From Haplodiscus bocki (taxonomy: Eukaryota): a DNA stretch of 64,000 nt. The stretch covers positions 15,996,001-16,060,000 of the forward strand of contig OZ296657.1 of the NCBI GenBank assembly GCA_965655095.1, written 5' to 3'. Position numbers and translations under genes: made by a program. Below the pieces are notes generated by a model. It was not told the DNA's origin. It worked only from the letters and a program-made list of their open reading frames with translations, and searched no databases. Within the stretch, counting starts at the first letter, position 1. The number at the start of each line of letters is the position of its first letter. Shown here in pieces: positions 8,883 through 55,750 of this stretch.

Positions 8883-9158
8883 TCAACTGTCATTATTTTC
8901 AGTACGTCCAATGTTGCAACTGTAATCAAATTCTTTGCCGGTATAAAAGCATACTGCTCCAGCAGCATCATGTATTATTGCATGTAGTTTGAAAACAATG
9001 GAGCTGCAAAACACATCATCCAAGTTCGAGTCTCCATAACCAATGATTTCAACAAATGGAAACTTTTGGTCCATGTTACGTGAAGAGATTCTATCGTTCC
9101 AACAGTAACTTGCACTGACAAATATGTTTCTGCGAGCACTGATTTGTTCATGAGACAA
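8883..9158 (-). pseudogene. Small ORF with LHAIIHDAAG motif (possible phospholipase-A2-like His-Asp domain), 3' end truncated by the satellite
   Basis: ORF track 91 aa ...IIGYGDSNLDDVFCSSIVFKLHAIIHDAAGAV... The last codons and the stop lie inside the terminal satellite monomer. The PLA2 assignment rests only on the HD dyad and on PLA2-like genes being known in Polinton-type viruses. Confidence 0.4.
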
Positions 9159-9649
9159 TCTTTGACTATTGTTTCAATTATGAACCATTTTCATCAATAA
9201 CAATGCACTGCTTGAAAAGCTTATAAATGTAATTCAATAGATAAACTCGCTTTGCAACGAGCTCGTGGTATAGTCAAATTTCTGACCGATTTTATCATCT
9301 TTGAGGTACGATAATTTCCGTAACGGTACACGACAATGTTCAACTTGTCTATCAGTCTTGAATATTACACATACCTTTCTCCTACCATTATATACTGCTC
9401 AATTTAGGCAAAAAATTCCTCTTTGGGATCAGTCTTTTCAATGTCTGGTGATCATTGCATTTCGACTGGCGTCAATATTACTTTTTCGAGAGTTTTTGGA
9501 GTTGTTAGTACAATATGATTAAGTGCCAAATATGAATTTAGCTGGAGAAAGAATTTTCTATCTCCAAAGTTGCAACTCATCCTGACAGTAAAAGAAAAGA
9601 AATTGATAAAGTAAAAAGTTGCAACTACTTTTTTCAGGACCAAACAACT

Positions 9650-10225
9650 GAATTGCTTAGCAATACCTTGATCATATACAAAATCCATATACAGAACAAC
9701 TAGATATCTAAAAAAGCTTAAATGAATACGATTTCTATGTGAATTAAAAACAAGTTTATATTTCACATAAAGTATGTCGAAAATTCTAACTCATTCTCTC
9801 TTGTAGAAAATTGGACTTCAGAATATGAAATCTCCGGCGAGTCCACGCTGTTTCGCAGCTGAGTCGCACAAATTTTTCGGTTTGGACGATCCACAACGTC
9901 AACCACTTTGGGAGCCAGTTTCTTTTGATATAATTGTCATCTGAACGGGAGACAAGTTTTCCTCCCGGCTAAAGTTTTCTGTTGCAACAACTAGCTGATT
10001 TTGTAGTCTCATAAATTGTTTGAAGCCTGCTTCTCCCATTTAAGGAGTTTTTACCAGTCAAAAATCCTAGTCAACATCTTTCGTGAAGACTTAGAGTTTG
10101 ATATCCAACGAACCAAAGTCACCTTTGGAACAAGAAAAGCGTTCAAAAATGTCTGTGAATTTTCCAAAGCTAGCCGGTTCAAGTTAGCTTGTCCAAGGAA
10201 GGAGTAGTTTTGTAAGCCAATGGTT
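9650..10225 (-). pseudogene. Frameshifted gene of the Polinton-like element, possibly PC4-like ssDNA-binding protein
   Basis: Stitched translation ...SLDIKLxVFTKDVDxDFxLVKTPxMGEAGFKQFMRLQNQLVVATENFSREENLSPV...KVVDVVDRPNRKICATQLR... A beta-strands-then-helix pattern appears twice. Homologous copy at ~48980-49510. Confidence 0.45.
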
Positions 10226-11699
10226 TTGATCATTGAGACAGCACGCTAGTAGCTGAGAAAGTCATCTGTTATAACAGAAGGGAAGTTAAGGAATGATCAT
10301 GGAGCTGCAAGTTGTTGCTGATATACGCTTCCGCATACCTTATTTGGTCAAGCTTACGTGTTATTTCAATTGAAGGAGACTTTTTTCTTTCAGGTCATTG
10401 GATCGACTTTCTCTAAAAATGAAAACCTCCTGCCTTTTTCAGTACGCTTGTAGGAAAAAAACGAAAAACTCTGCTTTTCAGGTTCATTTGTTCAGAAAAC
10501 CTCTTCAACAATCAAAAGGTTAGTGATAAGATGCAAGTAATTACCAGTTTTTACAATGGGAGAAGTTGAGAAAACAGCCTTTTCCATTAACTAAATATAT
10601 ACAAAAAACACATGGTATGTAAAGGAAACTGCATTGCCGACCACGACAAGACGTGCTTTCTACACAATTGCAGATATCACACTACAATAGAAGGATACAT
10701 TGAAGAGTTGCTAGAGAAACTGAATGGAATCTGCATCAAGTACCAGCACAAGAGCTATCTAAACAAACTCTTTGAGCATCGGTTCAGTAACAAAATGATT
10801 GACAAGAGGGGATAAATGTTTGATAGCAGACAGCAATCTACTTTAATCAAAGGGAGAGGAATGGACAGAATGCCCAGCAGTGCAATAGAGACTCTTAAGG
10901 AAAAGTTAAAACAGCACTTATTGAGCTCATTCGGAAGACAAAGTCAACGCAAACATAACAAATAGTGTCAGCAGAAAGATCTCAAAAGTCAAGAAGAAAA
11001 ACTTGAATTCGAGCTGATCAATATTGCAGATTCTTTCCTAGATGGTTACGGTAATTAAGATAAATAACTTTTTTACCCTAAAGAATAAACTCCATATAAA
11101 ATAATCATTCTTTGAATCCCAAAGAGACCTGTAAATATCAAGTGGTACTGCCCGTGAAAAGCCACCACACCCAGCAACAGTCCCACAACACTAAAGAATC
11201 TACCAAACAAACACTCTCTCGATCATTAAGAAGAAAAAAAAGAAGGAACATTCATCGCTGTTTCCTTCTATAATTGGCACTTTTATTTCTGTTCCGTACC
11301 AAGACTCCGCCAGATATCTTCCCACATCAAATCTGACTGACGGATAGATTCTGTGTACCTGTAAATGGCTGTTGCTCAAGTTTTCTTATCGCTCCGAGAC
11401 AACAATGAAGACAATGGATGGAAACTTACTTCAAAAGCCCACTATGTCATTTTGGGAGTGTTGCATTTTGGTAAACAATGTTGTTACAATTTATGCTCCA
11501 CAGGGATTTGTCTAGAGTTTCGGAAAAATTTCTCATGATTCAAAAAGAAACTTGTTCCGCACTGCTAAGGGGATATTTGGCAACACAAGATTATGATACT
11601 TTACTTCAGCGCAAACAGCGTCTTTTATGTCTGCTCTGTAGAGCAAGCAGTTTTTGAAACTGGCAAAAGCAATGATTGTTCACCCACAACCTGAGAAAC

Positions 11700-11840
11700 G
11701 AAATAACAATCAGATTCCGAATCAAAAATTTCACAACATGTCGGAGTTTGAATCAAAGTGTCACAATTTGAATCAAAAATTTTACGTGTGAGATTTCGGA
11801 AAAAGAATTTTTTTCTGAGTTCAAGTGTTAAATTCCAAAC
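11700..11840. repeat. Degenerate ~20-30-bp minisatellite ((T)GAATCAAAAATTT...CAGATT)
   Basis: GAATCAAA repeats at ~11719, 11750 and 11770. Related units occur at ~50930-51170. Confidence 0.45.
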
Positions 11841-14499
11841 TAATTCCACCACAGTACTTATGCCAAAGTTTTCCTACGTACCACCATGAGCAATTGCAAT
11901 CATCAATGTATTCAACTAGATAATAGCATCCGCTTTTCAAGAAAAAAGTTCCAGTACTCTTTTTCACAGGGACCCTTGCTTTCGATTTCGATGAGGTGTC
12001 CCACTTTTATCTGCGTTTGACCTTGACATATGCTGAAAGTAGCTGTTAATTGTAAGATTAGGGATAGCTAAAACAGAACTCACTGTGTTTTGGTATCACA
12101 TATGTCTGTTTTCGAAAAGTTAGATTTTATATTAAATTACATACACAGTAATACCCTCTTTCTCAAAACAAATTTCTTGAAACATAAACAGCAACATTTT
12201 CAATTCTGGTTCCAAATGGACAACTTCTCAGCAACCTGTGAGGTTCAGTAGAACGCTCCGACATGGGAGTTGTGGGTGGTGACTTCCCATTGTCCTCCTG
12301 GTCGATTACAAAGGGTTTTCCTGTTGATTCTCTAAGTCGTCAAACCTTTTGGGGATAAGGGGTTACCTATCTCTGGTCTAAAAGCAACTTCCAGCTCCAT
12401 CAGATGATTTTCCCAGACGAAATCATAATCATCCAAGTCAGATAGCTCATTGCCATTGGTATCCATATCCTGCGCACCAGCACCAGAGAGAACTTACTTC
12501 CTGAATTTATGTGTTCCTTGCTGGCTTGGAGTGATTAGGATTGGAGCCAACTGGTTGTCTGATAATTCTTGCTTTGCGACAACAACATGTACCAATCTGC
12601 CAGAGGAACTCCTTGGGAGCTTAAAGTCAATTCTTGGTCAAGATCTACAGTCAATAAGAGAATCTAATGCAAAGTCGAGAATCCACTGGATACGGTCGTT
12701 GGAAACTGCGAAAACGATGTTGTTTTACTGTACACTGGATGTGTATAAAAGGAGTATGGGAAGGAATTTTTGGTTATCTGTATCAACCAATGGGGAGTCG
12801 AAACGATTATGCCATAAATGGATTGACTTTTGTCGTTGGAAACTGGGAAAACCATGCTGCTTCAAGGTAGATAAAAGTTGGATAAAATGAAAGTTGACAT
12901 TTTTGCTAATTCCATGAGCCAATGGGAGCTCGACACGATTATGTCATGATTGAAGGATCTTAGCCCTTTTTTGGCACAAGTTTGGGTGTTGCTGTTTCTG
13001 ACTGTGAATATTTTGGTAGCGAGGGGGACGATTTTTCTGTTTCGTACTCACGAGTCGTATCTTTCGCAAAACAAAAAGTAGCTTCACCACCAAAAAATTG
13101 AATTGTCTGTCTTTAATCTTCGAAAAGAACTTTCAAAACGTGACAGCACGCTTTGCATCGCGGACATTCGTCACAGCTTTCACCACTTTCTTTCCATGCT
13201 TGGACATCCACAAATTTGCCTGGCACCAAACCTGCCAGAACAAAACACACCTTCAAGAACGTCTTTAAATGTCTTCTGCAACTCTTCAAAGACGTATATC
13301 GCCCGGTCACATACTAAATCAAATGAGTTTGCTTGACATTTGAAGGAAAAAATGCGCACCTGGCAGGTCGACCCGCATTGCGCACATTCAGAATCGCTTT
13401 TGTCGTGACATTTCAAAGTCTTCTGTGAACGTAAAGTTTACCGAAACACATTTTATTCGGACAATAAACGTTCCCATCAAGTTTAATAGGGCTATTGTCA
13501 GATCGGTAATCAGGATCGAACATGCTGCATATCGTATTTCATCTCAGCTCTCACCTATTTCACACTTGTATGCTACGTAATACCGCTGCTTGTAGAGGTA
13601 GCAAATTTCGCGAGGAAAAAACGTTAACAATTTCTGTAAGCATACTATCATTACCGTATAGTTCAAACTTTTTGATGGAAAAGATACAACATCTGTTGTT
13701 TTCAAAACGGAACGACAAGCAACTTTTTCTGTTCCAATGTTCAATGATATTTTGAGAGCAATGACTAGGGAGAGTATATTTTGATCTAGTAGATCCAAAA
13801 TCCATTTTGGCTTTCGACAAAAGAATCGATTGACATTCGTTAGCTTAATCAAAAGCTTTGAGAAATTCGCGCAAACTGTGAGTAAACAAACGAGTTCTTT
13901 TCTGGAAATATTATCTTCTCGGAGGATCTACCGCTGCTATGTCTTCGAATCGCAAAATCGGAATAATTTGATTGCAGAAGGCTTTTTGTTGGAGCCTTTG
14001 CTAACTCGGGCATATCCAAGCTGGGACTGGCAATAGTCAAAAATGTTGTGCTGAAAACAACTCAACGAACGTTTCGTCCAAAAACTTCTGGTACTGCTTC
14101 GTAAAATGAAAAAAGTTTGCAAACTGGGAAGTTGCTTTTCCACAGACATCAACTGCTTTGAGTCAGTTAACTCTGATAATTGATTTTATCGGTGGCTTAG
14201 TGGTAAAAGCGATGCAGTTGGTTGAGAATTTCGGTTTCCAGCGACAGTCATGCTATCATTCCGACCACTCAGATTTAAATATTTCACTTTTGACAATAGA
14301 TTGTGAAGCTGTGGGGTACTGGTTAAAAACTTTCTGTGTTCACCACGTTAAGGAGTACTCAAAGAACTTACGACCATAAATTCATGAATCTGTGATCGGA
14401 AGCTCATAACCTCTAGACACTGTGCAAAATTGAACTTTTGCTTCTTCTATGGCGTTCTTTTTGATTGACAGCTGAGACGAAATTACAAAAGATAAAAAG

Positions 14500-14780
14500 T
14501 TAATTTTCTCAGAGCGGCTTTCTCCCAATCAGGGGAACTCGTTGCAATTGAGTGATTTTCTGCGACAACCTCTTCACTTATCAGGTTGATAAGATCGACT
14601 TGGAATTTTTCCCAAGACAACGCGTCCCCTTATCAGAGGAAATTGTTCCACTTGATTTTCTCAGACAGCATGCCATCTTAACAGGGAACTTGATCCACTT
14701 CACCATTTTTCTCAGACAATAGGTCCCCATTCGAGATGAAGAAAAGCTTAGGCAATTAAATTTTTCTGATGACCATATGT
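14500..14780. repeat. Degenerate ~50-60-bp tandem repeat
   Basis: Recurrent GG(G)AAxTxxTxCACTT...TTTTCTCAGAC units at ~14532, 14638 and 14684. Confidence 0.4.
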
Positions 14781-15329
14781 CCATCTTGAAAAATATATGA
14801 CTGTTCGAGAGCTCCTTTTATGGTCAACTGAATAAGTCTCACAAACATGGTCTTTGCAGATATGGTAGAAAAGAAGAAAAACACTGGCTACAATTAAATC
14901 GCCATCATTTCTATTGCTACAATCGTTACGCTTTCAGAACATTGTGTTAGACTATTATTACTGCAATACCCTCACTTATTCAAAAAAAACTGCTTGTTGA
15001 ATTGTGGAACACAACCAAAAAAAAATTGTACGATACAAGAAAAGATGTTCAAATGGAATACTGTAATGTACCTAATGTCCAAAATTGACATCCACCTCTC
15101 AGGATAACTTGAACTTTAATATAGCAAAGAAGCATAGCTCAACCAGGTCCAAAAAGATTCACAAGTGTTGACCACGCGGTATAGACTTTCCCAGTTTCTA
15201 TTGCTTGCGATTACACAGACAATAGATTTATGGAGCAAAAAGTGAATTAGAAGCAAAAAAAAAACAAACAAATTTAAAAAATACTCGGAGAAGCAGACGA
15301 CGATATTTGCATCACAACCCCAATAAAAA

Positions 15330-16005
15330 TGTTTTTTTTTAAGAAACTTCGTCTGGTATGCACAAAAAAATTACCAATTGTTATGTAAACTCTTGTGAAA
15401 GGCTCCAATGATTTTGCGCAATCTGCTGTTAATGCTCGACAAGAAGACTAAAACCCTAGCTTGTGTTGTAGCAGGAACAAAAAAACTGCTTACCAACAGT
15501 TCCTATGGTTATCAAAATATAGATCGTAGTCGTCATTCTGTTACCAAATACCTGAATGATGATATGATGCATGCAGCAATAGACAACAAACTGTCCAAAA
15601 GACCACCCCATATCAATGATTAACTCTATGAAGTGGAACTGGTGAAGTGAGAGTTTGAACATTAAGAGCCAACCATTGTAAGTTTTTTCTCTTGCAGTAA
15701 GCTAAATTGGGAAATTTGAAGCTCTATTACAACTTCTTCACACAAAAACTTTGCGATACAGACAAATACGAAGAGATGGAAATGGATAGACTCTCTCTAT
15801 TTAGCACTCACAGGGAAAGATTTGTATAGTTGTATCCGAGAAGAGAAAAGGCAGGAGCGGGAGTCGTTGTGATGCTACCTTCACCGCAGACGCTTGCTGT
15901 AACTTTCCCCGTACATGTTGCGCAAAACACAGAAAAAAAACACAAGAGAGAGCCTGGACTGTTCAAGGAAACGTTTCGTTGCACTGAACTGTTGTTTGCA
16001 TATAT
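15330..16005 (+). pseudogene. Protein-primed family-B DNA polymerase remnant (C-terminal palm region)
   Basis: KKLLTNSSYGYQNIDRSRHSVTKYLND (PolB motif KxxxNSxYG, 15481-15560). A damaged EMD(T)DSLYLA motif lies at ~15775-15808, and KHKREPGLFKETFRCTELL at ~15935-15995. Multiple stops and frameshifts. Confidence 0.85.
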
Positions 16006-25850: not shown

Positions 25851-27549
25851 AAAAGTTCTGAATAAAGGTTTATAATATCGAATTTTTGACTAAGCGAACG
25901 AATATTGACATGAAAAATCCGTTTTTGCCCTCTCGACTGCTTTCAATGTCTGTGCCAAAAATTTTGGTTCGTTTAATTGTATTTTTAAGTGGTTTCGTTT
26001 TATTTGAAGAATCACTCATCGAAAATGCCCAAAAACTTCACAAACAGAAGCAACAAAATCCATGTCCCCTTAATGTAGATCAAACAAATTATTACAAACC
26101 TGAACCCAAACCAATCCTCCAGCAACTATGTTCTGGACTTTCCGAGTCTCAAAAAAAGACACCAACAGCCGGAGCATCTTTCTGCTTTTTTCATATGACC
26201 AAACAAACTGGAAAAAATTCAAGGACTTTCATCTCTGCTTTTCCAGCTACTGCACATCCAAAGTGTTGTCAACCTCAGAGCTCACCAGCTGCTTCACTAA
26301 CTCGCCGGCGCCGAAAAATCGCAAATATCAGCAGCTGTGTTTCTTTACCCCCGGGACACAATCTCGTTTTTATTGATTCCTTCTGATAATGGAGCCTTTT
26401 GCCTAATGCGCTCTGTCATCAAAGCAACGACATTATTCCGGACTACAAACATTCTTGATTTAGGGACATAATTTTTCTCCAACAGGGACAAAATATGTCA
26501 AAAGTTGGCAACCGCAATTTTTCATAATTATCACGTGTACACCCTGCATTCGGTAGACACAATCTTGAAGCGGACACTTCACAATAAAGACTTCAAGAAG
26601 TAAAAAGTGACTTCTGCAACCATGGAATGCAAGCCTGAATACAAGTAGCATGTCAAGCATAACAAATCAGACAAAAATCCCACTATAGTTCGTTTTTTGT
26701 TTCGATTTTGAAATATTTAGGAAAGTGAAGCCCGACTAGTTTTTCTAAAAGTATATCGATTTCCAATAGCTCTCTCAAACTCAAAAGTGACAAAAAATTC
26801 CTCAAGTGATGTCACTCATTTTTAAGTCAACCTTTTGAAAGTGGAGGCCAACGTTTTATTCTCTTAGAAGTGATCATGCATGGCTTAGTTTTTGAATCAG
26901 GCCATTGTCAACTGAAAACACCTGCCTAGAAGTAATCTGAGGACAATCTCAGCTACTCATTCCAGTCGACTTTTCCTGAACGACCTGTCGTCTGTTTTCT
27001 CTAGAGTAATCCTCGGGTACCTGTCTTTGACACTTAAATCGCTTCAGATCAAATCGGCGCTGCAGGTGGTTTTGGAGGGCCTTTCGCAACAACCTACATC
27101 TTATAGAGTCAGAAGACAAAAATCCGTGCAAAGTCCTCCAGAGGACACCACGTCGTCCTTCTCGACACGAATCAGTGTTTCATAAAAATTGAAAAGTCAT
27201 CGTGAGACGTCAAAACTTTCTGCTTTGAGTCTCGAATCAGTTTTTTGGTAGTGTAGCAGATTCATTCATTCCCCACTCAGACGAACCGCTTCCCGTTGTC
27301 CTCGATCGAGTATTCTAAATTATTCCGTTGTTTGATTTTATTGTTGGAGACAATTTGATCATAAAGAGTAGAAGAATACCTAGCATGGTCAGAGTCAAAC
27401 GCTTTAATGCAATCACCTGGGCCGTCCACCAGACCGAAAGCTGTTAATTTCACCGTCGCAAAAAGTTTGCATACTGGCAAGCTGAAAACCACTGTCAACG
27501 TCCGAAAAGCATGTGCAATATTTAGTCACGGGGTTCATTTTCCGGCCAA

Positions 27550-28050
27550 CCATGGTAACTTTCGTGTCTTGTATTTGACTTTCAGTTTTTCTATTGCCAT
27601 CGCTCGACTAATCCCACAGATACATTCATTCGCTCTCAAAGCACTTTTTCTACTACGCGAATGAACTCTTATATCTAGTCCCCATCAACTTTGACAAGGC
27701 ACCTATTCAAACTGACTATATCTTTTTACCATCCCTAATCCATATCCCGTGCATTTGTCTCGTCAAATTTAAAGAGAGTGGCTGACCCCCAATGGAGGCA
27801 TAGTTGGCGTAAAAGAGTTAAGGAACTGATTTAGTCTCTGTTCAAAGCGCATGCTCGTTCTCTCCCCAGCGAACAGGTACTTCTTCCACCGAAATATCAA
27901 GTTCCACTCTTCTAATTTCCATCAACGCGCACCAATGAATTTTGACTACAATGCGTGCGTTTTTCTGGTCAATAGTTTATGCTTCTTATCAAAGAAGTGC
28001 TTCCTGCAGGTAAAGATGAGTGAGAGATCGAACTGCGTTCGCAGCTGATC
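27550..28050 (-). pseudogene. Possible superfamily-3 helicase/ATPase remnant
   Basis: Walker-B-like ATLFKFDETNARDMD at ~27735-27785, preceded by FYANYASIG in a shifted frame. Walker A is not cleanly readable. Confidence 0.25.
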
Positions 28051-29299
28051 TTTATGACGTTTATGGAAACCCACATCTCTGCAAACGTCTTCTATATCCT
28101 GTAAATAAACAAACAAGATTCACCAGAGCTTGGGTAGTACTTCAGTATTGAATTGTATTGATTTTCCGTCAGATGCAACCAGTAACAAAAATTTAACGTA
28201 CACTCTCAGAACGGTATTTGGAAATAAAAAAAATCCTTTAGAACAAATCTTGGACGCTCTGTCGACCTCGCCAACCAAAGGTCTTCGTTGATTTGAAATA
28301 ACTAAACACTTAGAAAGCAAGTTCGCATTTCATAAAATTTTAATTTTGGTTTTTTCAACAGTTTTGGACCTGATACGAGACACACTGTGTACTAATACTG
28401 TCCAAATTGCCATCAAAATCGTTCTCACGTTTCATGAGATCCTTACTAGAACGTTCATCCCATAACGAATACTCATTCATAAAGAAAACTCCTGTGTACA
28501 TCTTTTTTCGCTGTGGACAAATAACAAATGATCATACAAGAAGCGTCAGTAGTCCCTCCCACAAGTTGCGTCTATCCCACAATGTGGGTGAAGTTAACTC
28601 CACTACTTTTCCTTTTTATTCACATTGCTAAGCCATAGAATACCTCAACTGTTTCGGACTTAGCTTGCTTAGCTTCGTTTATGTCCGTCAATATCAACTG
28701 AAACTCTTGCTTGCTGTTGCCATCTACACTGTTTGCCTCCTTAGTCCGTACAAACCGAGAAAATTCATATGGCAGCTTGCAAAACGTTTGTGGCAGTTTA
28801 AAGTGTTGGTTCAAATTAAGTCCGACTTTATACATATTGGCCTTTAAAACCGTTGCGACCGTATAGGATATAGGAGTAGCATAATCTTGATTTGACTTTC
28901 GAAAGGAAGAAAAAAAAGTCCATTTTTCATTAGTCCTGGTTCTCCGCCCTCGAGAGAACTGCTGTTGCTCTTTAAATGAGAGGACCGAGGTGGTTACAGT
29001 CCAACCCTTCCGTTTTGATTTCCTCACTCATTCCGAACGAACACTCGAGAAAAAGATTTTTTTTTGGAATTTTTGGGTAGAACTGTTTACTTTGATCGTT
29101 TCTTAACCTCCTTTGTCCTTGCTATATCTTATTTGCTTCGCGAAACAAAACTTCTATCGTTATCAACGCGATCATAGTTTTTAATCCAGGCAACGTATTC
29201 AGCAAACCTCCGAGATTTATTGGATACTTGTAACTTTCTTCTCATAAATGTACTTCCTTTTGATTTTTTTATCTCGGCTTTTTGCACTCTGATGCTGGA

Positions 29300-30550
29300 T
29301 TTAAGTATTTTTTGGAAATTTAATCGCCACTAGATGCCTCGTTAGTCGTTTGCTGTTCTCCATTTGTTGCTGGGATCAGTCGAGCATTTTAACACTTCTG
29401 TTGATGTGGAAAATCTATCATACCCTCATTTGCTACGCCACTTGTGGATGTCGGACAAGGATGTGCTGTTTTCTCCGCTTCAATTTGAAAAAACTGCCTT
29501 TAATTTTCTCAAACAATGAGCTGGGCTCCACCAGCCTCTGTTTGTTTTTGCTACTCCGCATAGAAACTTGTTCCTTCTTTTCGCGTTCGTCATTTCTACC
29601 GTTGTGTATCTACAAAACTTTTTCCATCTTTCCGGGACAAACACGACAGTGAAAAACAGGGTCAAATAGGATTTTAAAAAACGTGTCGGCTCCAGTTTGA
29701 AAAAAAGTTAAGTTCTTCAGGTATCGTGTTTTCTCGAACGGAAAAAAACTGAGCACTTGCTCCATTCCCGTTTAAGCAGGCCAATAGATGAAGTAAACAG
29801 AAAAGTTTCTGTCAACTTTGACCCACCTCTATTGGTGTCCACATCAGTCGATCTGTTTGTGCATTTCACTTTTTGTACAGAAGTTGAAACTGATCGGTGC
29901 CGTTTGATGTTTTGGATTAGGTTTGTCGAAAAGAATATCAATTGACAGTTTCAAGGGTGTACACGACACGGTAAAAATAGGACGGTATTTTAATACTGCA
30001 TGAAATGAGGAGCAAATTGCCATCATCACTAGTTGGACACAGCTTTCCAACTCATGTGGATCCTCCTTCACAAACTTGAGAAATTTTTTCCGGCAGGTAC
30101 TGCTCTTCATTTTGATAGTTGCATTTTCTTCAAGATGGGACGATGTCATTGGAATCCTCTCATTCGCGACAGTCCGACAATTTCCGCGAAATACCTCAAA
30201 CATTGGGCGTTTGCCTTTATTGCTGTGTTGTTTTACAGCACACCCAAATCTTGTGTTCTTATGCCGCTCTCTTCAGGCTGCACTGTTGACAGTCCAAAGG
30301 AATGCGGATTATATTTGCCTGCCTTTTACTTGTGTTCGAAGACAAAATGAATAAAAATTCTATCCATCCCACAATGATGTCTCAGGGGTTTGTGAATCTT
30401 TTTTGCCACACAAGAGCACTGTCGTCAAAAAACCTCGACTTTCCGGACAAACACGTAGGTTCTGAAAAAAATTTTGAAAACCACCACAACCAAAAGCGTT
30501 AGTTTTGATGCAGACTGCTTCTTTGAACTTTGGCAAGAATGTGCTGACAT
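29300..30550 (-). mobile_element. Third, partial copy of the Polinton-like element's accessory-gene block
   Basis: The 119-aa ORF 29844-30203 and flanking Cys-containing fragments resemble the minus-strand blocks at 12300-13420, by eye and at low identity. Confidence 0.4.
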
Positions 30551-30599
30551 AAGCGACCATAACAGACGTGCCTTTTTAATTTTGCGTCAATCATGCGCC

Positions 30600-30990: not shown

Positions 30991-31049
30991 CAAACCTTCC
31001 AGAAGCTTGTTTCTAAGTTGTAAAAGCTCATTGGAAGACTTCACGAAAA

Positions 31050-44620: not shown

Positions 44621-47149
44621 CACTGAAAAGGTGGATTTATTATTAATGATTTAGTATGTAGATTAAAATAAAAATAGCATTTTTCAAGTTAAAATCCCAT
44701 GTGAATATTTGTTCGCTCTCTAAGTGTTCCGTCCTAGTCTGGGTTGGTCTAGTTCGGCGATCCGTTTTTAATACGGATCGGTATCCATGTATAGTACATG
44801 AAGTTACGTATGGAAACTTATTGTATCAGACATGAGATTTTAGGTTGCATTCTGATTTTTGGGTAGTCTTTTCTCTAAATAGGGGTTGACTGAAAGTTTC
44901 GCAGGTGTGCTGCGACAAATATATTTAGTATTGGCTAACATAACCGCACTAGTCGATGCAGTTGGACTCCACTACCTAACCACACACTATAAGATTATAG
45001 AAATGCATTTGGTATAGACTGTAAAAGTTGAAATCTTCGATTGTTTTGGTATGGAGTAGGCATCTATATTTTGCATGATTGATGAAAAATACTCAGTACA
45101 TGCTTAGATATTCGAACTCTTAATTTGCTTCGATTTGCAGCGAGGCATCATTATTCTGACTAATGGTGGAATGAATTGAGCTAAAACCTTGATTTCCGAT
45201 CTCTTAGATGGTTTTGACTTCTTGTAGGCATCCAATTTTTGAGACACTGATAAAAAAAAACGTAGCACGTGCGTTCATTTTGGGAATTCCTGGTTTGCTT
45301 TGATTTGCGATGGGAATCTTTACATCGGATGATTGCTGAAGTTAACATAACAGAAGGCCAAAAATTAAGATCATGACTTGTTTCCTTGTATAACAAAAAG
45401 AATGAAAGTTATGCAAAGGGAAATCTACTTTCTTTTCACGCACTAGTTAGTATGTGTTTCCAAGCCATGGGCAACCCTATACCAAATGATTTCACCGCAA
45501 AACGTTTTCTCAAATTTTTTGTGCGCTTGAACCAAGTCAATACAAATATCAGCAAGCACCTGAACGCTTTTAAAGTTCCATTTGACAAAAATCTGAAAGA
45601 AAGGCACTTCAATCACTGTTCTCGCTGAACAATTTCGCTCATGTTTTTAGTCTTTGTGTTCCTTCGTCCATATCCTAATCCTCAAATTCGGTATTTTTTT
45701 CCAGATTATATAGCAGAATTCATTCTCTTTTTTCATTTTTTTCATAACGACATGAAAATCACTGCTGTTTGTTTTGATGATCTTGTTCCTGTGTCTGTAT
45801 ATCATCGACTTCGATTCCAATGGTTGCATTTTTGGATATTGACACTTCTTCTCGCTCAGATTCGGCAACGTTGTTTGATGCATCAAGATTGTTGAGTGAG
45901 TGAGGACGTTGGGATCTCCGCAGTTCGCTTTTAGACACTGCGGAATAGTTGCTTTATTTGTCTGATTGAAGTAATTGCAGATCAAATTTCGAGGTACTCA
46001 GCCACTTTTTACACCGGATTGAGCACTTTCATTCAGAATCCGAATTGGAAAAAAACCCAGAAGCGTCGAAAAAAGCAAATGACTGGAAAGTTTGCGTTCT
46101 TTGACGGTGTTGTTGGGAAAAGTACCCGGACAAACCTTCCATTGAGACACGGTCTAATTTCAATGACACAGGTAATGAAAACTTCAAGGCCTAAAAGGCG
46201 GCAACATTAAGTTTTTTTAAAAAAGAATCAACTTAGGCAAAATCATCTTCTTAACGTTTTTTGATAGCCATTCAATATGATACGTTAAAAAACGTGTGAA
46301 ATTGATGCTCCGGAAGTTCTTGTGCTACTAAATGTTGCCAAATGCAACTCTTAGTTTCTCTACAAAAGCGTGGACGACAGCCTTTCTTTCCATAGCATGA
46401 CAAACGCCAATTGATGAAATAACTTTTAAAATGTTTTTGAGGCCTAATCAAAGGACAGAATTTCTTGTGTTTCTGCTGCGTTCTAGTTTTTTTCCGAATT
46501 TTGTGAAATGTAATTCCAAATTGTTTGATAGGTTTCCCTGTTGCAGAATTGTTTTTAACCCAATGAAACCGGATAAACGTCTTTCGACACAAATGAAGGG
46601 GATTAATGTGTGTTGGCGGTAATCGGGTTAGAATACTGGGACGGTAAAAAGACTGTCTGTATATAGGTGAAATTGTTTAGGTGATTTCTCGAATTGGTGT
46701 TACAGAACAATTAGGAGAAAGACCACATTTAGCACAATAACGTTTTCGATTATCTCATGATTGAATCAATAAAGAACCGGAGAGATTGTATGTTTTGTCT
46801 CGGTGCCAGTCCTTGAATTTCGTTCCCGGACCCAACTATGAACATCGGGCGTTGACCTGCTTTACCTCGCAGTATATTTTAGGAAAACAATGTGTGTGTA
46901 GCGGAGCTCAACATGTCAACCTAGTTTGCATTGAGAGGAAGAGTCGTTTTTCATGCTGAAAGTACTCAAACCGCGATCTCGTCTAACAGCAACAAACTAT
47001 TCTGAGATGCAAATCACTGCACACAAACTGTCAAAGATCAGCAAAGAAAATTTACACCTGTTATTTATCAACGAATCAATGAACTCAAAGTCTACACCCT
47101 GAGCAAAAAATGAAAAAATCACAAAATCGCTTGATATAATTATGTCGCT

Positions 47150-47950
47150 GCGACTGCTGATCAAAAAAAGAAATTTTTCACAATTTTGATAGAATCGTTA
47201 CATTTTTACGACAAATGTACTTTAGTTCCAATTTTGCGTTCTCGGGAAGTCCACCGATGGATTTTAGGACGAAGTTTTTAAAAGTTATCAACAACTTCGT
47301 AGTCCGGTAGATCCCTATGAAATTTTTCCTGATACAAAAGAGAAAACATTCACTGTCCCAGGTGTTTGGCCATGCGATTTTGACCGATGAAAATTCCAAT
47401 TGGAAACAATCTTTTCTATTCAACAGATTGAGAAGAAATTGAGACTTAGCAACAATCAATGATCTGGTATATGTTTTTCCAATCAAAACCACGGTTTTTG
47501 CTTAATTGTCGTCGTTGAAAAAATGTTTCTTCAGCTTTTTGCTATCATCTCAATCAGGTTTCAAACTGATGAACTCAATCTTTCAGGAATCATTTTTTGC
47601 AAAATAGGTCAGTCCTTTTTAACACACTAGAAGGTACACACGGACAAAATAAAAGACAACAAAGTAGTTTCTTCGTATGTTGCATATTCCAATAGCCGAT
47701 AATTTGTGATTCAAGCTAAGTATAAAGTGGAAAATTTGAGCATTTATAAATTTTTTCATCGGTTTTGCGCCCTTTGATTTTTCGATTTCTGGGGCAACGA
47801 TAACTGTCCATTTTTTCAAAAACCTATCAAACTGCCAAAATTTGCTCCTTTTTTTACATTTCTGCAAAAAGGTTAGTCCATACATCATCGGAAAGAACTT
47901 TTGGGAGCTCAATCTGGTCGACATGACCACTGCTTTACACAATTCATTGC
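47150..47950 (-). pseudogene. Virus-like element ORF remnant adjacent to copy 2 (possible helicase N-terminal region)
   Basis: Two consecutive >100-codon minus-strand fragments (47178-47492, 47619-47942), including LLNLLNRKDCFQL...ECFLFCIRKNF. No diagnostic catalytic motif. Confidence 0.25.
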
Positions 47951-48449
47951 AGTTTTTTTCTACATCAAAAAACTCTCGTAGAGTTGTTTTATTCAGAAGA
48001 CAAAATGAGTAATTTAAGGCTTCGCAGCTGTAAAAATCCTAACTCTACAAAACTTTCGCTTCTGGAAGCTCAATAATAAGTAAACTGCAAAATATGGTGC
48101 ATCAGATATTGTTGAAGAAAAGAGTGGAACGTAGGAAATGCTTTAGGTGAACAAAAAGTAGTCCCCTCACGAGACCCAGCAAGCTTGAATTTGGATTTAT
48201 TTCAAATTAATAACACTAACGGAATCCTTTGACACCGTGCAATTGAGTCCAGCAGCATTGAGTAGGTTGACAATTAGGCTAAATGTTTTGGGGCAATAGA
48301 GTACAAAGTCCAAAATCGACTATCAAAATTTAAATCAGTCCAGCTGCAGTTGTAGTGTAGCGTTAGCAAAACACCAGCAACTTTGACGGTAATGGGGTTC
48401 AACTCAAATTGACAGAGAACAATTCATTGGCATAATTTTGGATCGTTGC

Positions 48450-51400
48450 GTTGTCATTGTATACGACGACGCAAAAGTTGATAAATGAGTCAAGTTTCAT
48501 CAACAAAGGAAGTTTTGTTTCTTGCGACCTTCCCTTGAAACCATTCACCACTAGAAATTTCCCTCAGGCACAAAATCGTCCATTACAATTTGTTTCCAAA
48601 AACATGTTACTTTTCGACCCATAAATGTTTGTTAAGTGAGCTGGAGTAAAAGTTTCTATTTAGAGGAACCATTAGGATCGTAGTTTGCATATTTTTGTTT
48701 GTTATTGTATACAGCCCAATGTGGACAATAAGTTTCAATTGTGGGACCAGAGGTTTCGATATTCTAGAGTTTGTTGAATTTCCAGTGGATTCAGCGACTT
48801 TTTTCATGAGAGATTATCGGGAGTTGTTCGTAAAACAGGACAAAAAAACCCAATTTTTGTTTCGGCTGTAGAAAAAAGCGTCTGTTTCCTCCAATGTAAC
48901 AACCCGTTCTGGTTGGAAAAAAAACACAGAAAAAACTTGCATAAATTTTGAATGAGACTTGGCATTTAGGCTCATGAGCAATATTAAAAAAATAAACGGA
49001 ATTCAATGCTTCTACAAGATACAAACCTTTTAAAAATTATGCTTCATCTACACAATTTGTTGAAACTTCTCTTCCTCTTATTTCTAGCGAACAAGAGAAC
49101 TCAAGCATAGAAACGTTTTGATTCGTCCACAGTGCAAAAAAGTCGAAAAACTAACTGTGATTGAACGACTCACGGCATTAACCACTCCATGATCCAGCTG
49201 GAGTTGTTCGTCTTTATCCCTCGAAAATATTGGCATGTCAGGACACAAACTTTTAAACTTTTCCACTGCCAATTATTCTACGCTGCATCAACTAGCTGCT
49301 TTCGTAGTCTCAGAAAGTTGTTAACATCCGACCCTCTCTTCGATTGATTTTTCGGCAAAAGTTTGATGTAAAGTTTCCTGAAAACTTTCAGTTGAACAAT
49401 ATGGACGGAACGAACGGTTCAAATATGTTTTGACATTTTTCAATGTCCATGAAGTTTGTCCACTGGGCTTATCTACGGTAGCAGTAGTAATTTATGCCAT
49501 TACTGGCAATGGTTCGAACAAACTGACAGCTAGCTATTGTTGAAAAAGATTGAGGAGGAATGACTTTCGGTAGCGCGTTGCTAACAGCATTTTTTGGCAT
49601 CGTCCTTCGTAATTTTAGTAACCTTCATTGATCCATTTTCTTTAGTCAGCAACGCTACAAGTTTCAAAATGATTAAGTTCCTTCGTTTTTTGTTTTTTTT
49701 GGAAGCAACAAAAATTGAACTTTCATTTCATTATCTCAGGAAATCACAAATTTAAACAGATGACAGCTGAAGTTAAACATCCAATACACAGTTTTTCCGC
49801 GAAAACATCAGCAAGGAAATTTTTTCTGATCCACAAATATAAACAAAAAGGACATTTTCTGTGAAGAAACCTGCATGGCGCACTACGACCAGGTTAACCA
49901 CTTTTTACGAAGTTGCAAACATTACCTTTCACTCCTTGACGATAATGGAAAATTACTATAAAAAGGTGCGGTTTTACTCACTCATCAAAACATGGACGGC
50001 TTCTTCCTCGTACTAGAGTACCGACTAAAGAATATGGCGAAAAACATTGCCAGTGGTTGACATAAATTTGACAACAGGTTGTTTTTGTTAAGGTTGAAGA
50101 TTGCAATAAAAAAATTTCCGGTGAAGAAAACGAAAAAATTTCTTTGTGTTCCCGATAAAAAATTGAAGGAAATCAGTAGATCAGTGTCTGCCTAAAAACT
50201 TAGCCTAAATGACAAAAAAAATCGAAATGGAACTGATGAAATATATTGACAGATTTTCAAGATGCTATATTTACTTTCTAGGTAATTCAGTACATTTGAA
50301 CACACAATTTGTTCGAATTAACAAAATTTTGTAGACCTGGAAATATGAACAAATTGGAAGTAGTTTGAAAACGATTGCAAGTGCTAAGAATTCCCAACAG
50401 AAGAGAGAACCCGGTAAGCGAGAAAATGCCAACAATTAATGAGAAAACACCTCTTTGACGCTTCCTTTGGATCAGTCGTTGATGTTGATCATTGGTACTT
50501 TCACAGCATTATATATCGTCTCACAATCAATCAATTTTATGCATGGTTTCTTTCTGGCCCATAAAAAGTACTTTCCAGTCATTGGTTTTTGGTTGCTAAA
50601 TAAAATCGCTTAAAACAATAGCTGGAATTACAAAAAAATGTTCTTTCTCTGTTTGAAAGCGTTAAAACTGGCAACACAATCTAAGTTTTTCTATCGGGAT
50701 GAAACGCAGTTTTTCCCAGAGGCAGTGTGAAAGATTGTCTTTCAATTGCAAGGAAATACTTCTCACAGGATGCGCAAATTGACGCCTGTTGAACATTCAA
50801 GTAGTATATGTGGTGGCTATACTAAAGAAATTTTTCTCCTCGGTCACCTATGAAGAAAGTCGCCTTCCGTGTTGGCACCGAAAATTAACATGCAAAGGGA
50901 ACCTGAGATCTGACTGAGAAATTTCAGTTTCGAATCATAAGTCTGACAATATATTAGATTGTGATTGAAGTCTCTTGCAGTTTGTTAGACTTCGAAACGA
51001 CTTCATTCAAAAATCCAGAATTCGAATTAAACTGAGGAGCCATAAGGCTCGCATTTGTTTGATTTAACTGTGCGGAACAGTCACATGTTAGCTTTTAAGT
51101 GTTTTGTGAAAATGTAGGCTTCTAACAAGAAATCTCTGGCAAACATTAGATTTTGAATCAAAGAACTTTGAGAATTATCAACTTTTGAAAAAAACCGTAA
51201 ACGTGTCCAATCTTGCAAAAACGTGCACTGAAACGTTATTGAGTCAATTCTTATACCGGGTGTTAGAATATCAACCTGAGCAATCGTCTTTCTGATTTTT
51301 GCTTTCATCATGTGATCCAGAAAAAATCTTTACAAAACGTTTCCTTCCATCGAAGCAGAAAAAACGCAGCCGATATTATCTTGAATCAGTTAAAAATTCC

Positions 51401-54400
51401 GTTCACCGTTCAACCAATAGTGTTGACTCTTTGTTACACGTGTTTTGTCCTGTGATTTTGCCATGCTGTCTCCTTGTTCTTGCTTGTAGTTAAATGATAT
51501 GTGCAGACACTATTGGCTATACGAAGGGATAACAAACAAAAAAGGATCTAAACTTGGCTCATACATATTTCATTTGCTTTTGAGGCAATTTTAATTGAAT
51601 AGAAAACTGTAAATCAAGTGTTTGAGTAATATCCCATTTGAGTAAAAACGTTTAATGAAACAAAGATCTTTAAGCATAATCTGGCATACTTCTTTTTCGA
51701 CTTCATGAGGGACCACTCCTCAGCCATGTGAGAGATAGATCTGATCCTGCTGACAGTAGAGACGTTGGCGGTGGATTATCCATGTCTAACTTGTGCAATA
51801 CAAATTGCTTTCTCGGCTGAAGCTATATGCAAATCGCTAAAAGCTGTTGTTGAACACCACTATCTTTCGTCAGTGTAAAGGTAGGGTTCTTATCCAATTG
51901 AGGGTTTTCCTACAGGGTTTATTTTTCATCCAATTTGCCAGTACTTCCTGTATATATTCTCTATATCATTCTACACCTCATTTTTTACCTCATACTGCCA
52001 ATATCCATGTCCTGCGCTCCAATTGTTCAGATTTCTTCCCTACCCACCTTCATAACTCCTTGCTGTTTGTGAATTTTTGAAACATGCGCTCGACGATCAT
52101 CCAAAAAGTTCTGTTTTGGGACTGCGACACGTGCCAAATGGCACGAGCTGACACTTGGGTGTTGATTTTAATGTTTTTCACAAAGAATTCTTCCTATCGG
52201 TAACTGAATGCGGTTCAAAACGCAATGTCCACCAGACTCCTTCTTTTAAAACTGACATGCTTTTGCTGTTTAACTTTAAATCAAAGTTGTCTGGAAAGCC
52301 AATGAAATCGGTGTCTCAGTTTCTCCATGAGTCAATGACGCTCTGAATAATTATGCAATATTTTGAAAGTTTTCGGTTTTTCTCGCTCAGTTTCAGTTGT
52401 GGTAGACTCTCAGTGGTGGAGAAAAACGGTAAAAAGAGCGCCAGGCCATTCGCTTTTGCTCTATACGCACCAATTAAAAAAACTTGTTCTTCGTTCCTCG
52501 AAGGCAACATTGAGCAGTTGGAATTTGGTTTTGAAATTTTTGAGGTCATCATTTTTATGAACCTTTTTGCATAATGAAACTTGCAAACTCTCCGTGTTTT
52601 CACATTCTATGCAGGGTGCAAACAACACTTCTCCAATAAATTTTTTCCTTTCTTGATTGGAATATTTTTTTGGGACGTTTGTTAAAACCTGTTCTGCAAC
52701 CTTCAGCAAGGAAGAAACGTTCTTTCTCTCTGTCTGCAATTTTTATCTAGTTGTGCTTCTGTCTGTCAAACGGTAATTATTGAAAATGTGGAGCGTGGAA
52801 CAAGTGCTTACGTTTTCAAACTTCTCCGTACAAAATTTGATCGCCAACTAATCACACGACAACCCCAACTTCTGATTTTTCTACAAGTTTGTTGGATCAC
52901 AAACTTCTGTTTCATAAGTGGTAGTTGCTTCAGAAAATTTTTGGAGCATTGTTGTAGCCACATTTCTAGAGATAGTGCTTTTGGAAGACTTTTAGTATAC
53001 AAAACTCTGGAATCAAAATATACACATCTCTACTTTAAAATTCCATGATAGAAAAATGCAAATCTTGTCTTGTTGTTTCGTTCAAACCAAAGAACTCTAG
53101 TAACTAGTCTGTTGGTGTGTATCCATATTATTGAGTCAACGGGTTTTCGTTTGATAACATTGAGTCAGGAATATTGGGTTCCGGTGGAGATACTGGTAGA
53201 GAATTTCATGTTTATTCGTAATCTTGTCTCAGCTTAAGCAAATTGTCCAGTGGAGAACCAATTCTTAGAAAAAACTTGTGGGAGGTTTTTGTGACGTTTC
53301 TTTGTTTCATTTTCGCTCAGTTGCAACGAGTGGTGAACCTGATCACATCTAAATCAAGTTCAATTTATAATGCGGAGCGTGACATTGGAAGGGCAGTAAG
53401 GACGGTTAATAAAAACTAAACTAAATGGTTCAGCTAAAATTTGCTGATCTTCTTCTCTAAATTTCTATGATTTTTGTTGTTGTTGTTGCAAAAAATCTTC
53501 GAAGCTTCTTTGAAGCATCAAAACTTCTGAAACTAAGATGTTTTTTCTCTCCAAACGGTTCGGTCGACCGATTAAAAAGCAATTATCTGGAATTACCGCG
53601 CATGGCGCTGTTCACGGTAAACTCCATAGCTGTATTCTTCTCGGAGCAAAATGCAAAACTTATTCGATCCTAACGGAAAATGGAGCAACTACAAATTTGG
53701 CCACATCCAAACTGAAATCATCAAGCCTTCCACTCCCAATAAATGAGAACTGTAAGTTTTTACCACAATTATTGGAGCAGGTTCAGTTGTGTTCCTTCAA
53801 TGATATTTGGCTGAAGTACGACCGTAGACAAGTTGGTAAAATTTGACAACAAGAAAAGATGGCTGTCGTTTACCCAAAACAGATACAGGTCTGTTAAAGC
53901 TGTTTACACTTGGTTATGTGTGCATCATCAGATCTGATCAACAACTTTGGACATATCTGCAAAAACTAATCTCAATCTCTTCACGGAAGGGGAAAAAATC
54001 CTATGCGACAAACTGTGAGAAAATTTTTTCGGGGTTAATATGTCGTTTTCCATTCGAAAGTTGAAGAACTTAAAAATAACCGCTGTTTGAATCGAGACTG
54101 ATCAAAAGTGCTTTTTAATCGAAGTTTCAACCTGTGCGCACCAAACATTCCAAGTGTTGGGATTTTGTTTCAACGACCAGTACATTAACACCGGAAAAAG
54201 ACGCGACCAGGTTTTTTGAATGAACGTCCTTTCCATATTTTCAACTAACAAGACCGGAAAGTGAAATCTATAAGTTCTAGATAAAGAGCCGACAAGAATT
54301 GTTTTTTTTTCAGCGTTCATGGGTTCGAATCACAATGCAGCGCTGCAATTGAAACAATAGGATGCTTTTGGTTTTTTTCTTTTTGTCAATAAGTATGCCC

Positions 54401-55750
54401 TTCTCTCACTGAAGATGAAATGTTAGGCGGCATTGAGGAGGCAGAGAGGTCAATGAGGTGAGATCAAGCAAAGGACGGAAAAACAACTTCAGCCGTCTTG
54501 CAATGCAGGAAAGTGAACGGTGGAGGTATGACTGGAAAGACAAACAAGAATCAACAGCAGGAACTCAAAGACGTTCACTTTCATTTTTCCGAATGCTTCA
54601 ACACATCAGTAACTGTGAGTTGTGTGGTTACTTTCAATGCGAAATTGTTATGCCTGAAAACATGAGAGCCAACTATTCTAACTCGCGTCTTTTTTCTAAA
54701 AAGCTCTTCAGTTAGTCAGATAGATATGGAAAACCTAAAAAAAACATAAGCAATGGAACGATGGAAATTGTCTCAACTACGGAAGAGGTTGAAGCCGTGC
54801 TTCACGTTACAAAAGAAAACACTGTCTCTCTTTTCTCTATGATGTCTGAAATTAAGTCTTCTTTGCAGTTCTCGAGAGTTTTTTGCAGTAGACATTGAAC
54901 CCAAGAAACATTGATGAAAATCACCATTCAAATGTCGATGCGGAGAGGGCGAAACTGCAAGCCAGTAGTTTCTCTATCTGTCAAATTTTGGACTGCATGA
55001 GGCATATTGTGCCAGAGTACGTTAACGATGAATAAACACACGCCGCTATTTTTAGGAAGCTAATGAAGGATCTTCCTTACCTGAACAAAGCATTTTCTAC
55101 AATTAAAACCAATTGTGGACAGCTCCAAAAGGGGGAGTCAATTTTTCTCGTGTTTTTCGTTCTTTCATTAACCCACACTGCAAAAACTGGAACCTAATCA
55201 CAAGCATGTATCAACTTTTGAGATGTTAACAAGTTCGAGGATAAGCAAATGAATCTCGATATTCTTTATCCTGATCTCGATGAGGCGGAACTGGAAGGTT
55301 GAATCCGACCTGTGATAAAGGCAGTGTGAGACGAATTCCAAACAATTGACTGCAGAGAAGTTTTTTCGGCGACGCAGATGGATCTTCCCCGAACATGTTT
55401 TTTAAACCACAAAAAACATGTCCTGCTTGATCAGGGTCTTTTCAAACGAAAGATGCAGATTTTTTTTCTGTAGTAAGTCTAAATTTGCAACGATGTTACA
55501 TGGAGCAACCTCATATTCAGTAGTATTGATCTCAAAAAAAGCATTCTGGTGAACATTGATGAGGGAGGAACAACCGGAAAAATGTCGAAAGGACTTTGCT
55601 GAAAAAATTGAAAAGACGTCAAGAAACGGAGACTTCTGAGCAAGCAATAACACTTTTGTTACTTATCAGCAAATAAAAAAAGTTCCTTGCGGTTTGACCC
55701 GAAACAGTTCTCAGAGAGTGATGGATTTTAAGCTTAGCCTCTCAATTCTC
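48450..55750. mobile_element. Degenerate Polinton/adintovirus-like endogenous element, copy 2
   Basis: Same order and orientation of gene relics as 8906-16005, ending in a longer pPolB relic. Confidence 0.72.
53050..55720 (+). pseudogene. Protein-primed family-B DNA polymerase remnant (exonuclease to palm region)
   Basis: SFFEASKTSETKxFFS (cf. KGxFPYEW of pPolB) at ~53500-53560. ESERWR (cf. WECEW) at ~54510. LCGYFQCEIVMPENMRANY at ~54620-54675. The region homologous to KLLxNSSYG...KYLNDE..HAAI lies at ~54950-55050, and PRTC...GLFK at ~55388-55450. It aligns with 15400-16000. Confidence 0.8.

What the first reader, a model, noticed from the sequence alone, without database searches (positions are those of the whole stretch)
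8906..55750. Two collinear fossils of an unusual pPolB-encoding virus-like element with mostly unannotated genes
Seen: copy 1 (~8.9-16.0 kb) and copy 2 (~48.5-55.7 kb) share order and strand. The sequence is a minus-strand PC4-like gene (9988-10020 ~ 49289-49320), a plus-strand Cys/His ORF (10612-10815 ~ 49850-50050), a GAATCAAA minisatellite (~11750 ~ 50930-51170), an acidic/Pro-rich minus ORF (12459-12478 ~ 52001-52020), further minus ORFs, then plus-strand pPolB. A third partial block lies at ~29.3-30.5 kb. Established: pPolB marks Polintons/Mavericks, adintoviruses and relatives. I could not recognise a capsid, protease, packaging ATPase or integrase inside these blocks. Inference: this is a lineage-specific endogenous virus family with a conserved cassette of orphan genes. 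It is the best candidate here for an undescribed system and could be reconstructed by consensus.
Basis: partly seen in the sequence, partly recalled or inferred. Interest (0 to 1): 0.75.

Follow-up and report, generated by a model that had tools for sequence, protein, structure and literature searches.

The report
Two decayed Polinton (Maverick) copies
The two matching blocks are broken leftovers of a Polinton/Maverick, a well-known virus-like jumping element of animal genomes, so this is mostly ordinary, although several of its side genes could not be named.

Summary
The collinearity is real. 9387-12822 aligns with 48704-52366 (z=49; nhmmer E down to 3e-27), and 13.6-14.2 kb and the polymerase remnants lie on the same diagonal. 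Both polymerase remnants match unnamed database proteins with family-B motifs, long spacers and a nuclease-like insert.

The claim of no ATPase or integrase does not hold for the family. An A32-type packaging ATPase lies at 46.6-47.3 kb, 1.4 kb left of copy 2's shared block: 56 of 57 search hits map there and 9 carry Pox_A32. In relatives the gene order runs on into an rve integrase (9 of 34). In the window the match stops at 46.07 kb and no integrase is detectable.

No capsid, protease or terminal repeats were found. The third block is weak, the minisatellite is not a true array, and the PC4-like label is unverified.

Verdict: two independently inserted, truncated fossils of a Polinton/adintovirus-type family, a new member of a known kind. 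The residual interest is about 5 kb of accessory genes I could not annotate.

The parts
8906..9173 (-). Left end of copy 1: gene fragment cut off by the satellite; its His-Asp motif suggests a PLA2-like gene (recalled lead, not confirmed)
   Evidence: Open stretch; no Pfam, PHROG or PDB support; weak collinear tile 8907-9505~48201-48827, 115 vs 74-94 shuffled, not significant in the restricted test (5 of 25)
9387..12822 (.). Copy 1 accessory-gene cassette, collinear with 48704-52366
   Evidence: z=49; nhmmer E 3e-27 to 0.025
9703..10060 (-).
   Evidence: DNA match 9757-10261~49038-49548 E 2e-18; no family hit
10591..10812 (+). Cys/His-rich orphan ORF fragment
   Evidence: Matches 49836-50033, score 65 vs null max 43; no Pfam hit, PHROG only E>=0.028 to unknown-function families
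11710..11785 (.). Short degenerate repeat with three GAATCAAA octamers; not a true minisatellite, not shown in copy 2
12166..12637 (-). Acidic/Pro-rich part of a broken orphan gene
   Evidence: Pieces match 51658-51810 (55 vs null max 39) and 52048-52158 (50 vs 38); tblastx
13547..14265 (-). Broken orphan gene with traces in three places in the window
   Evidence: 13590-14189~52964-53544 z=5.8; 13802-14265~27148-27617 z=4.7; no usable Atlas hit
15311..15994 (+). Copy 1 polymerase remnant (motifs B and C only); 5-6 stops and 5 frameshifts in about 225 codons
   Evidence: 59-61% identity to P0004/P0002; profile E 1e-42; P0004 residues 1-336 not found upstream
27148..27617 (-). Third fragment, similar to copy 1 13802-14265
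   Evidence: nhmmer E 0.01; z=4.7, 0 of 200; not significant against copy 2 (19 of 200)
29148..29882 (.).
   Evidence: z=3.3 against copy 2 only, none against copy 1; no nhmmer hit
46072..46337 (-). Small gene that directly precedes the integrase in relatives; left limit of detectable copy 2
   Evidence: Score 51 and 49, 0 of 100 local shuffles each; relatives P0079/P0085 read through from it into rve
46659..47251 (-). A32/FtsK-type packaging ATPase pseudogene
   Evidence: 56 of 57 phmmer hits map here; 9 of 57 carry Pox_A32, 2 above cut-off; profile E 2e-22
47418..48130 (-). Bridge between the ATPase and the cassette: two stretches matching database relatives (47418-47496, 47781-48130)
   Evidence: P0026 N-part 48 vs null max 41; P0061 103 vs null max 50
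48704..53544 (.). Copy 2 accessory-gene cassette
54119..55714 (+). Copy 2 polymerase remnant (motif A region, nuclease-like insert, motifs B and C, C-terminal part); 11 stops and 8 frameshifts
   Evidence: 38% identity over 527 codons to P0004; profile E 4e-34

Best explanation
Both blocks are dead, separately inserted copies of one Polinton/Maverick (adintovirus-type) family in a repeat-rich animal genome region. SHOWN: a shared gene order over about 6.5 kb; polymerase remnants; an A32-type ATPase contiguous with copy 2; and the order ATPase - short stretch - small gene - rve integrase in relatives. INFERRED from what is known of Polintons: the active ancestor integrated with its rve integrase, copied itself as linear DNA by protein-primed synthesis, and packaged DNA into jelly-roll capsids with the ATPase. 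The roughly 5 kb cassette between ATPase and polymerase would be its accessory region, like the Adintoc/Oncoid region of adintoviruses, probably serving replication or host control. After insertion each copy decayed in its own way. Copy 1 was cut by the satellite at 8905 and keeps about 225 polymerase codons. Copy 2 lost everything left of 46.07 kb (integrase and presumably capsid genes) and apparently most of the polymerase N-terminal half. Neither copy can work today.
For: Collinearity. Polymerase relatives 62-73% identical to the query. They show motifs B, C (DTDS) and KxY in order, B-to-C spacing 98 against 71-92 in phi29/PRD1/Bam35 and 59 in T4, and a motif-A-like DxxxLYP in P0002. ATPase; Walker-A-like and Walker-B-like motifs visible in relatives. 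Integrase in relatives: 4 of 35 with precomputed PF00665, 9 of 34 at E<=0.01 and 3 above cut-off, profile hits retroviral integrases in the PDB at E 2.5e-5. About 95 distinct database relatives, most of them pieces or read-throughs, point to a multicopy decayed family. For separate insertion: copy 1's polymerase is 59-61% identical to database relatives but only 33-43% to copy 2, and the right flanks do not align (5 of 50 shuffles as good).
Against: No integrase in the window itself. No capsid or protease hit among 292 stop-free fragments and 33 read-through frames scanned with Pfam. That scan also missed the proven ATPase and polymerase, so it has little power. No terminal inverted repeats. 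The polymerase call rests on motifs: no PF03175 hit, no PDB hit, profile comparison with three phage pPolBs only 0.5% probability on motif B, and the fold failed (pLDDT 30). The ATPase is linked to the cassette in one copy only.
Confidence: 0.85

Rival explanations
1. A distinct, undescribed lineage of integrating pPolB elements that has ATPase and integrase but no recognisable capsid or protease, with some cassette genes doing those jobs (the strong form of the first reader's view).
For: No capsid or protease found in the window. The polymerase is invisible to Pfam and PDB sequence searches. No cassette gene could be named. Family motifs were not found in the text of two survey supplements, although the alignments there may be images.
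Against: Copy 2 is cut where the integrase should start, so any genes beyond it are simply not in the window. A packaging ATPase implies a capsid (established knowledge). Pfam-invisible PolB is described for Beta adintoviruses (PMC8502044). P0027 joins an 84-residue non-ATPase piece to the ATPase; its Atlas neighbours are unnamed viral and eukaryotic clusters at 0.95-0.97. That piece resembles a minor capsid protein by my recall only.
Confidence: 0.08
2. The two blocks come from one old local segmental duplication of a single insertion rather than two insertions.
For: Same strand, 39 kb apart. Another repeat pair, 23.1-25.3 kb and 56.8-59.0 kb, is also direct.
Against: The two pairs have different offsets (39.4 vs 33.65 kb). 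Flanks do not align. Copy 1 is much closer to database relatives than to copy 2. The polymerase remnants have different ends.
Confidence: 0.05
3. The ATPase module (46.0-48.2 kb) and the cassette plus polymerase (48.7-55.7 kb) are two unrelated elements that happen to abut.
For: Copy 1 ends at the satellite, so the junction is seen once. The 48.2-48.7 kb link is weak (above shuffles, not).
Against: Matches to relatives run almost without a break from 46072 to 48130. The ATPase is on the same strand as the neighbouring cassette genes, and its decay is similar: 31-42% identity for the ATPase module, 32-38% for the polymerase.
Confidence: 0.06

Closest known systems
Polintons/Mavericks (core genes per PMC3671162 and PMC10748475)
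   Same: Family-B polymerase with pPolB-like spacing, A32/FtsK packaging ATPase, rve integrase downstream of the ATPase in relatives, many decayed copies.
   Different: The window copies are truncated (about 7 kb and 9.6 kb against 13-25 kb). They show no integrase, capsid, protease, TIR or TSD. Accessory genes could not be matched to named Polinton genes.
Adintoviruses, Beta PolB class (Starrett et al., PMC8502044)
   Same: PolB too divergent for pfam03175; rve plus FtsK-type ATPase; conserved genes of unknown function (Adintoc) and Cys-rich genes upstream of PolB (Oncoid); degraded germline copies.
   Different: OTU domain, hexon, penton, adenain, GasderminX and Cupiennin were not found or could not be tested. 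A PLA2-like gene is only a recalled lead, and PLA2X is described there as typical of Alpha-class virion modules.
VSR-nuclease-bearing pPolB2 Polintons of marine nematodes and molluscs (Jeong et al., PMC10748475)
   Same: Relatives have about 170 extra residues between motifs A and B, with weak restriction-endonuclease-fold hits (Pfam MTES_1575 E 0.014; PHROG endonuclease E 0.026).
   Different: No labelled sequences were available for a tree, so pPolB1 versus pPolB2 is undecided. The insert is called VSR-like from weak hits and recall.
Polinton-like viruses, virophages, bidnaviruses, linear plasmids
   Same: pPolB and/or packaging ATPase.
   Different: pPolB, A32 ATPase and rve together, in an animal-type genome, fit Polintons best. 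The capsid phylogeny that defines these groups could not be run.

Membership tests
Polinton/Maverick | Family-B DNA polymerase gene | tested here: met
   Window remnants match P0002-P0005, which show motifs B, C (DTDS) and KxY in order and a motif-A-like stretch. Motif-level only.
Polinton/Maverick | Polymerase is protein-primed (TPR1/TPR2) | tested here: inconclusive
   B-to-C spacing 98 vs 71-92 in three phage pPolBs and 59 in T4; C-to-KxY 82 vs 39-44 in phi29/PRD1 and 87 in T4. hhalign 0.5% vs pPolBs, 0.2% vs T4. Fold failed.
Polinton/Maverick | A32/FtsK packaging ATPase | tested here: met
   46659-47251
Polinton/Maverick | rve integrase in the element family | tested here: met
   Relatives read from the ATPase-linked small gene into rve: 9 of 34 at E<=0.01, 3 above cut-off. 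The window copies lack it: copy 2's match stops at 46072 and 44.9-46.1 kb scores no better than shuffles (9-14 of 40).
Polinton/Maverick | Major and minor jelly-roll capsid genes | tested here: inconclusive
   No Pfam hit in the window, but the scan misses known genes here too. No genomic context for relatives. P0027 N-part unresolved.
Polinton/Maverick | C5 (adenain-like) protease | tested here: inconclusive
   No Pfam hit; low power; both copies truncated.
Polinton/Maverick | Terminal inverted repeats and 5-8 bp target-site duplication | tested here: inconclusive
   No inverted pair longer than 39 nt; end-versus-end alignments at noise level. The true ends are not preserved.
Adintovirus, Beta PolB class | PolB divergent from pfam03175 | tested here: met
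   0 of 4 relatives hit PF03175 at E<=0.1; they are partial proteins.
Adintovirus, Beta PolB class | N-terminal OTU domain; hexon/penton clustering; GasderminX/Cupiennin | not testable with these tools
   No full-length relative or labelled reference set was reachable.
PC4-like ssDNA-binding proteins (gene at 9.7-10.06 kb) | PC4 profile or fold | tested here: inconclusive
   No Pfam hit at E<=0.02 for the stop-free pieces or E<=1 for read-through frames; no PHROG hit. The gene is broken, and no language-model or fold result was obtained for it.

The most novel reading that the evidence does not exclude
The family is a separate lineage of animal integrating DNA viruses with a Pfam-invisible, nuclease-bearing pPolB, A32 ATPase and rve integrase. 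Its virion genes are absent or unrecognisably divergent, and its conserved 5 kb cassette of at least five orphan genes (perhaps including PC4-like single-strand DNA binders) is a new replication or host-control module. A milder form, an ordinary Polinton with a lineage-specific and so far undescribed accessory cassette, is much likelier (about 0.5) but would deserve only about 0.3.
Probability: 0.08. Interest if true: 0.55.

Novelty: new member of a known kind. Interest (0 to 1): 0.2.

Why it matters
As it stands it adds one more decayed Polinton family to many thousands already catalogued (20,702 integrase-linked pPolB1 and 1,331 pPolB2 in 7,897 assemblies, PMC10748475). The open point is the accessory cassette. 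Its order is kept between two copies whose polymerases are only about 33-43% identical, which suggests the genes mattered to the active element. What Polinton accessory genes do is largely unknown. Annotating them from naturally intact copies could add replication or host-control functions.

Tried and rejected
blastn misses the homology. Pfam on window fragments gave no Polinton gene: 150 stop-free pieces, 24 read-through frames, 142 pieces (ankyrin only), 9 frames. The 52.9-56.8 kb part was scanned only as read-through frames. PHROGs on 24 window pieces gave no named family. The word-index search with the ATPase fossil found nothing, whereas the exhaustive search did.

An integrase at 45.0-46.0 kb, which I first thought I saw by eye, was rejected. 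tblastn, a frameshift-tolerant alignment and a profile all gave noise, while the neighbouring ATPase module and polymerase score 256 and 557 by the same kind of alignment.

Two scans of prokaryotic genomes found no relatives. PDB sequence searches gave nothing for polymerase, ATPase and the PLA2-like piece. tblastn of P0002 against phages gave E>=0.6. Two folds were unusable (pLDDT 30 and 48), so no fold search was run. Atlas: unnamed clusters for P0027 1-84, no usable hit for 13563-13844. One nhmmer run timed out.

Also rejected: percent DNA identity as a divergence measure; a true minisatellite; TIRs; copy 1 13.7-14.9 kb matching 46.1-47.6 kb (noise).

Names and accessions of the relatives could not be obtained, and viral and metagenome contig collections stayed unchecked, so no intact element or gene neighbourhood was seen.

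Literature: Polinton + PC4 gave 1 paper (listing only); Symsagittifera + Polinton gave 0; family motifs were found in neither of two supplements. bioRxiv supplements were not visible and may list this family.


Full report
SETTING. The window looks like repeat-rich eukaryotic DNA. Bases 1-8905 are a satellite (155-bp unit, about 917-bp higher-order period), GC is 32-43%, and an ankyrin gene fragment lies at 60.6-61.2 kb. The host was not determined. By recall the proteins resemble Polinton proteins of acoel worms; this is an untested lead. Mavericks make up 4.5% of one acoel assembly (PMC6451197, passages), and a survey table lists 28 pPolB1 copies in 2 of 2 Xenacoelomorpha genomes (PMC10748475 supplement rows).

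OBSERVATION. blastn does not see the two blocks, but more sensitive methods do. tblastx gives a chain of weak same-strand hits at an offset of 39.3-39.5 kb. In 8 of 12 informative tiles of copy 1, the best hit in the rest of the window lies on that diagonal. nhmmer gives E 3e-27 for 9384-10098~48701-49393, 6e-20 for 12160-12823~51652-52367 and 2e-14 for the polymerase. The block 9387-12822~48704-52366 scores z=49, and 13590-14189~52964-53544 scores z=5.8 (pair picked after looking). Copy 1's 12.8-13.6 kb and 14.3-15.3 kb do not align above shuffles. Percent DNA identity is uninformative here, since shuffled DNA reaches 64% in aligned columns. At protein level 3 of 14 copy-1 fragments give significant collinear hits in copy 2, and none gives a same-strand collinear hit in 25.3-31 kb. 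The minisatellite is three octamers in copy 1 and no array. The third block at 29.3-30.5 kb is weak and matches copy 2 only; a better third fragment is 27148-27617.

POLYMERASE. A search with 15399-15701 returned 4 unnamed proteins, 62-73% identical. They carry motif B, DTDS and KxY in order, with B-to-C spacing of 98 residues against 71-92 in phi29, PRD1 and Bam35 and 59 in T4. P0002 shows a motif-A-like DxxxLYP about 300 residues before motif B, against 120-149 in the references. The extra 170 residues have weak endonuclease hits. Nuclease insertions in Polinton pPolBs are described: HNH and VSR in PMC10748475 (passages, Introduction and part 3 of 7 read), and a remark in PMC11161782 (passages). 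Against this: no PF03175 hit, no PDB hit, a non-significant profile comparison and a failed fold. The call is therefore motif-based. Copy 1 keeps 15311-15994 (59-61% identity, 5-6 stops, 5 frameshifts); copy 2 keeps 54119-55714 (32-38%, 9-11 stops, 7-8 frameshifts). Only about 570 bases separate the last cassette match from the motif A region in copy 2, too little for the long N-terminal part of eukaryotic pPolBs, so that part was probably deleted (inference).

THE MISSED HALLMARK GENES. An exhaustive search with one minus-strand frame of 45011-48610 gave 57 proteins; 56 map to 46.5-47.3 kb. Nine of the 57 hit Pox_A32, two above the curated cut-off, and their profile hits the window at E 2e-22. 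Some relatives run beyond the ATPase. Searching with the downstream part of P0024 gave 35 proteins including itself; 9 of the other 34 hit rve, 3 above cut-off, and their profile hits retroviral integrases in the PDB. The small gene that precedes the integrase in these relatives maps to 46072-46337 (0 of 100 shuffles), and matches to relatives continue rightwards to 48130. The integrase itself is not in the window: four tests at 44.9-46.1 kb gave noise, although neighbouring genes at the same level of decay score far above it. Copy 2 therefore spans at least 46072-55714 and is cut at the integrase start. PolB, integrase, protease and ATPase are the Polinton core (PMC3671162, passages); three of the four are shown for this family.

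ACCESSORY CASSETTE. No cassette gene could be named. PC4-like and PLA2-like remain labels from memory. Adintoviruses are described as carrying conserved unknown genes (Adintoc), Cys-rich Oncoid genes upstream of PolB and PLA2X, with a Beta PolB too divergent for pfam03175 (PMC8502044, part 2 of 6 and passages). An unannotated block beside PolB is therefore expected, not exceptional. I found no paper describing this cassette. The searches were limited to (listings), passages of bioRxiv 10.64898/2026.10.13.758929 (supplements not visible) and two supplements held as text.

MECHANISM. Shown: gene order, decay, ATPase, and integrase in relatives. Inferred from Polinton biology: integration by rve, protein-primed replication of a linear form, packaging by the ATPase into a jelly-roll capsid, and accessory genes for replication or host control. 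The copies are probably separate insertions. Copy 1's polymerase is far closer to database relatives than to copy 2, and the flanks differ. Capsid, protease and termini are not shown, and no intact copy could be reached, which leaves a small chance of a capsid-less or highly divergent lineage.

VERDICT. These are two truncated fossils of a Polinton/Maverick (adintovirus-type) family: a new member of a known kind, interest 0.2.

Noticed in passing
window 1-8905: Satellite array, 155-bp unit with an approximately 917-bp higher-order repeat; it abuts and truncates copy 1.
   Followed up: partly
window 23159-25315 and 56808-58964: Direct repeat pair, 68% identical. Reverse-transcriptase-like text of a LINE by eye; Pfam gave no support.
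   Followed up: partly
window 44990-46070: About 1 kb where the integrase would be expected but is not detectable; contains a 116-aa open stretch (45650-45997, minus) with no convincing family and no match elsewhere in the tested regions. Unexplained.
   Followed up: partly
window 14480-14790: Faint repeat with about 52-bp period between the cassette and the polymerase remnant of copy 1; not seen in copy 2.
   Followed up: partly
window 35176-35377 and 38561-38759; 33790-33938 and 39482-39643: Two short direct repeat pairs, with a 32-33 bp minisatellite at 34220-34329; possibly ends of other mobile elements.
   Followed up: no
window 19818-21986 (minus): Long open, Pro-rich and acidic/Lys-rich frames (126, 173, 325 aa) that look like exons of a host gene; no Pfam hit.
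   Followed up: no
window 60619-61218 (plus): Ankyrin-repeat gene fragment (Pfam Ank_5 E 1e-10), apparently with a short in-frame intron.
   Followed up: no
protein P0027 residues 1-84: Non-ATPase piece joined to the ATPase in one relative; minor-capsid-like by recall, unnamed viral and eukaryotic clusters in the Atlas, no match in the window.
   Followed up: partly
window 44280-44420: AGT/ACT-rich short repeats that recall Polinton termini (recalled); no inverted partner found.
   Followed up: partly
window 62581-62754 (plus): Very weak match to the polymerase C-terminal part (E 0.14-0.5); probably chance.
   Followed up: no
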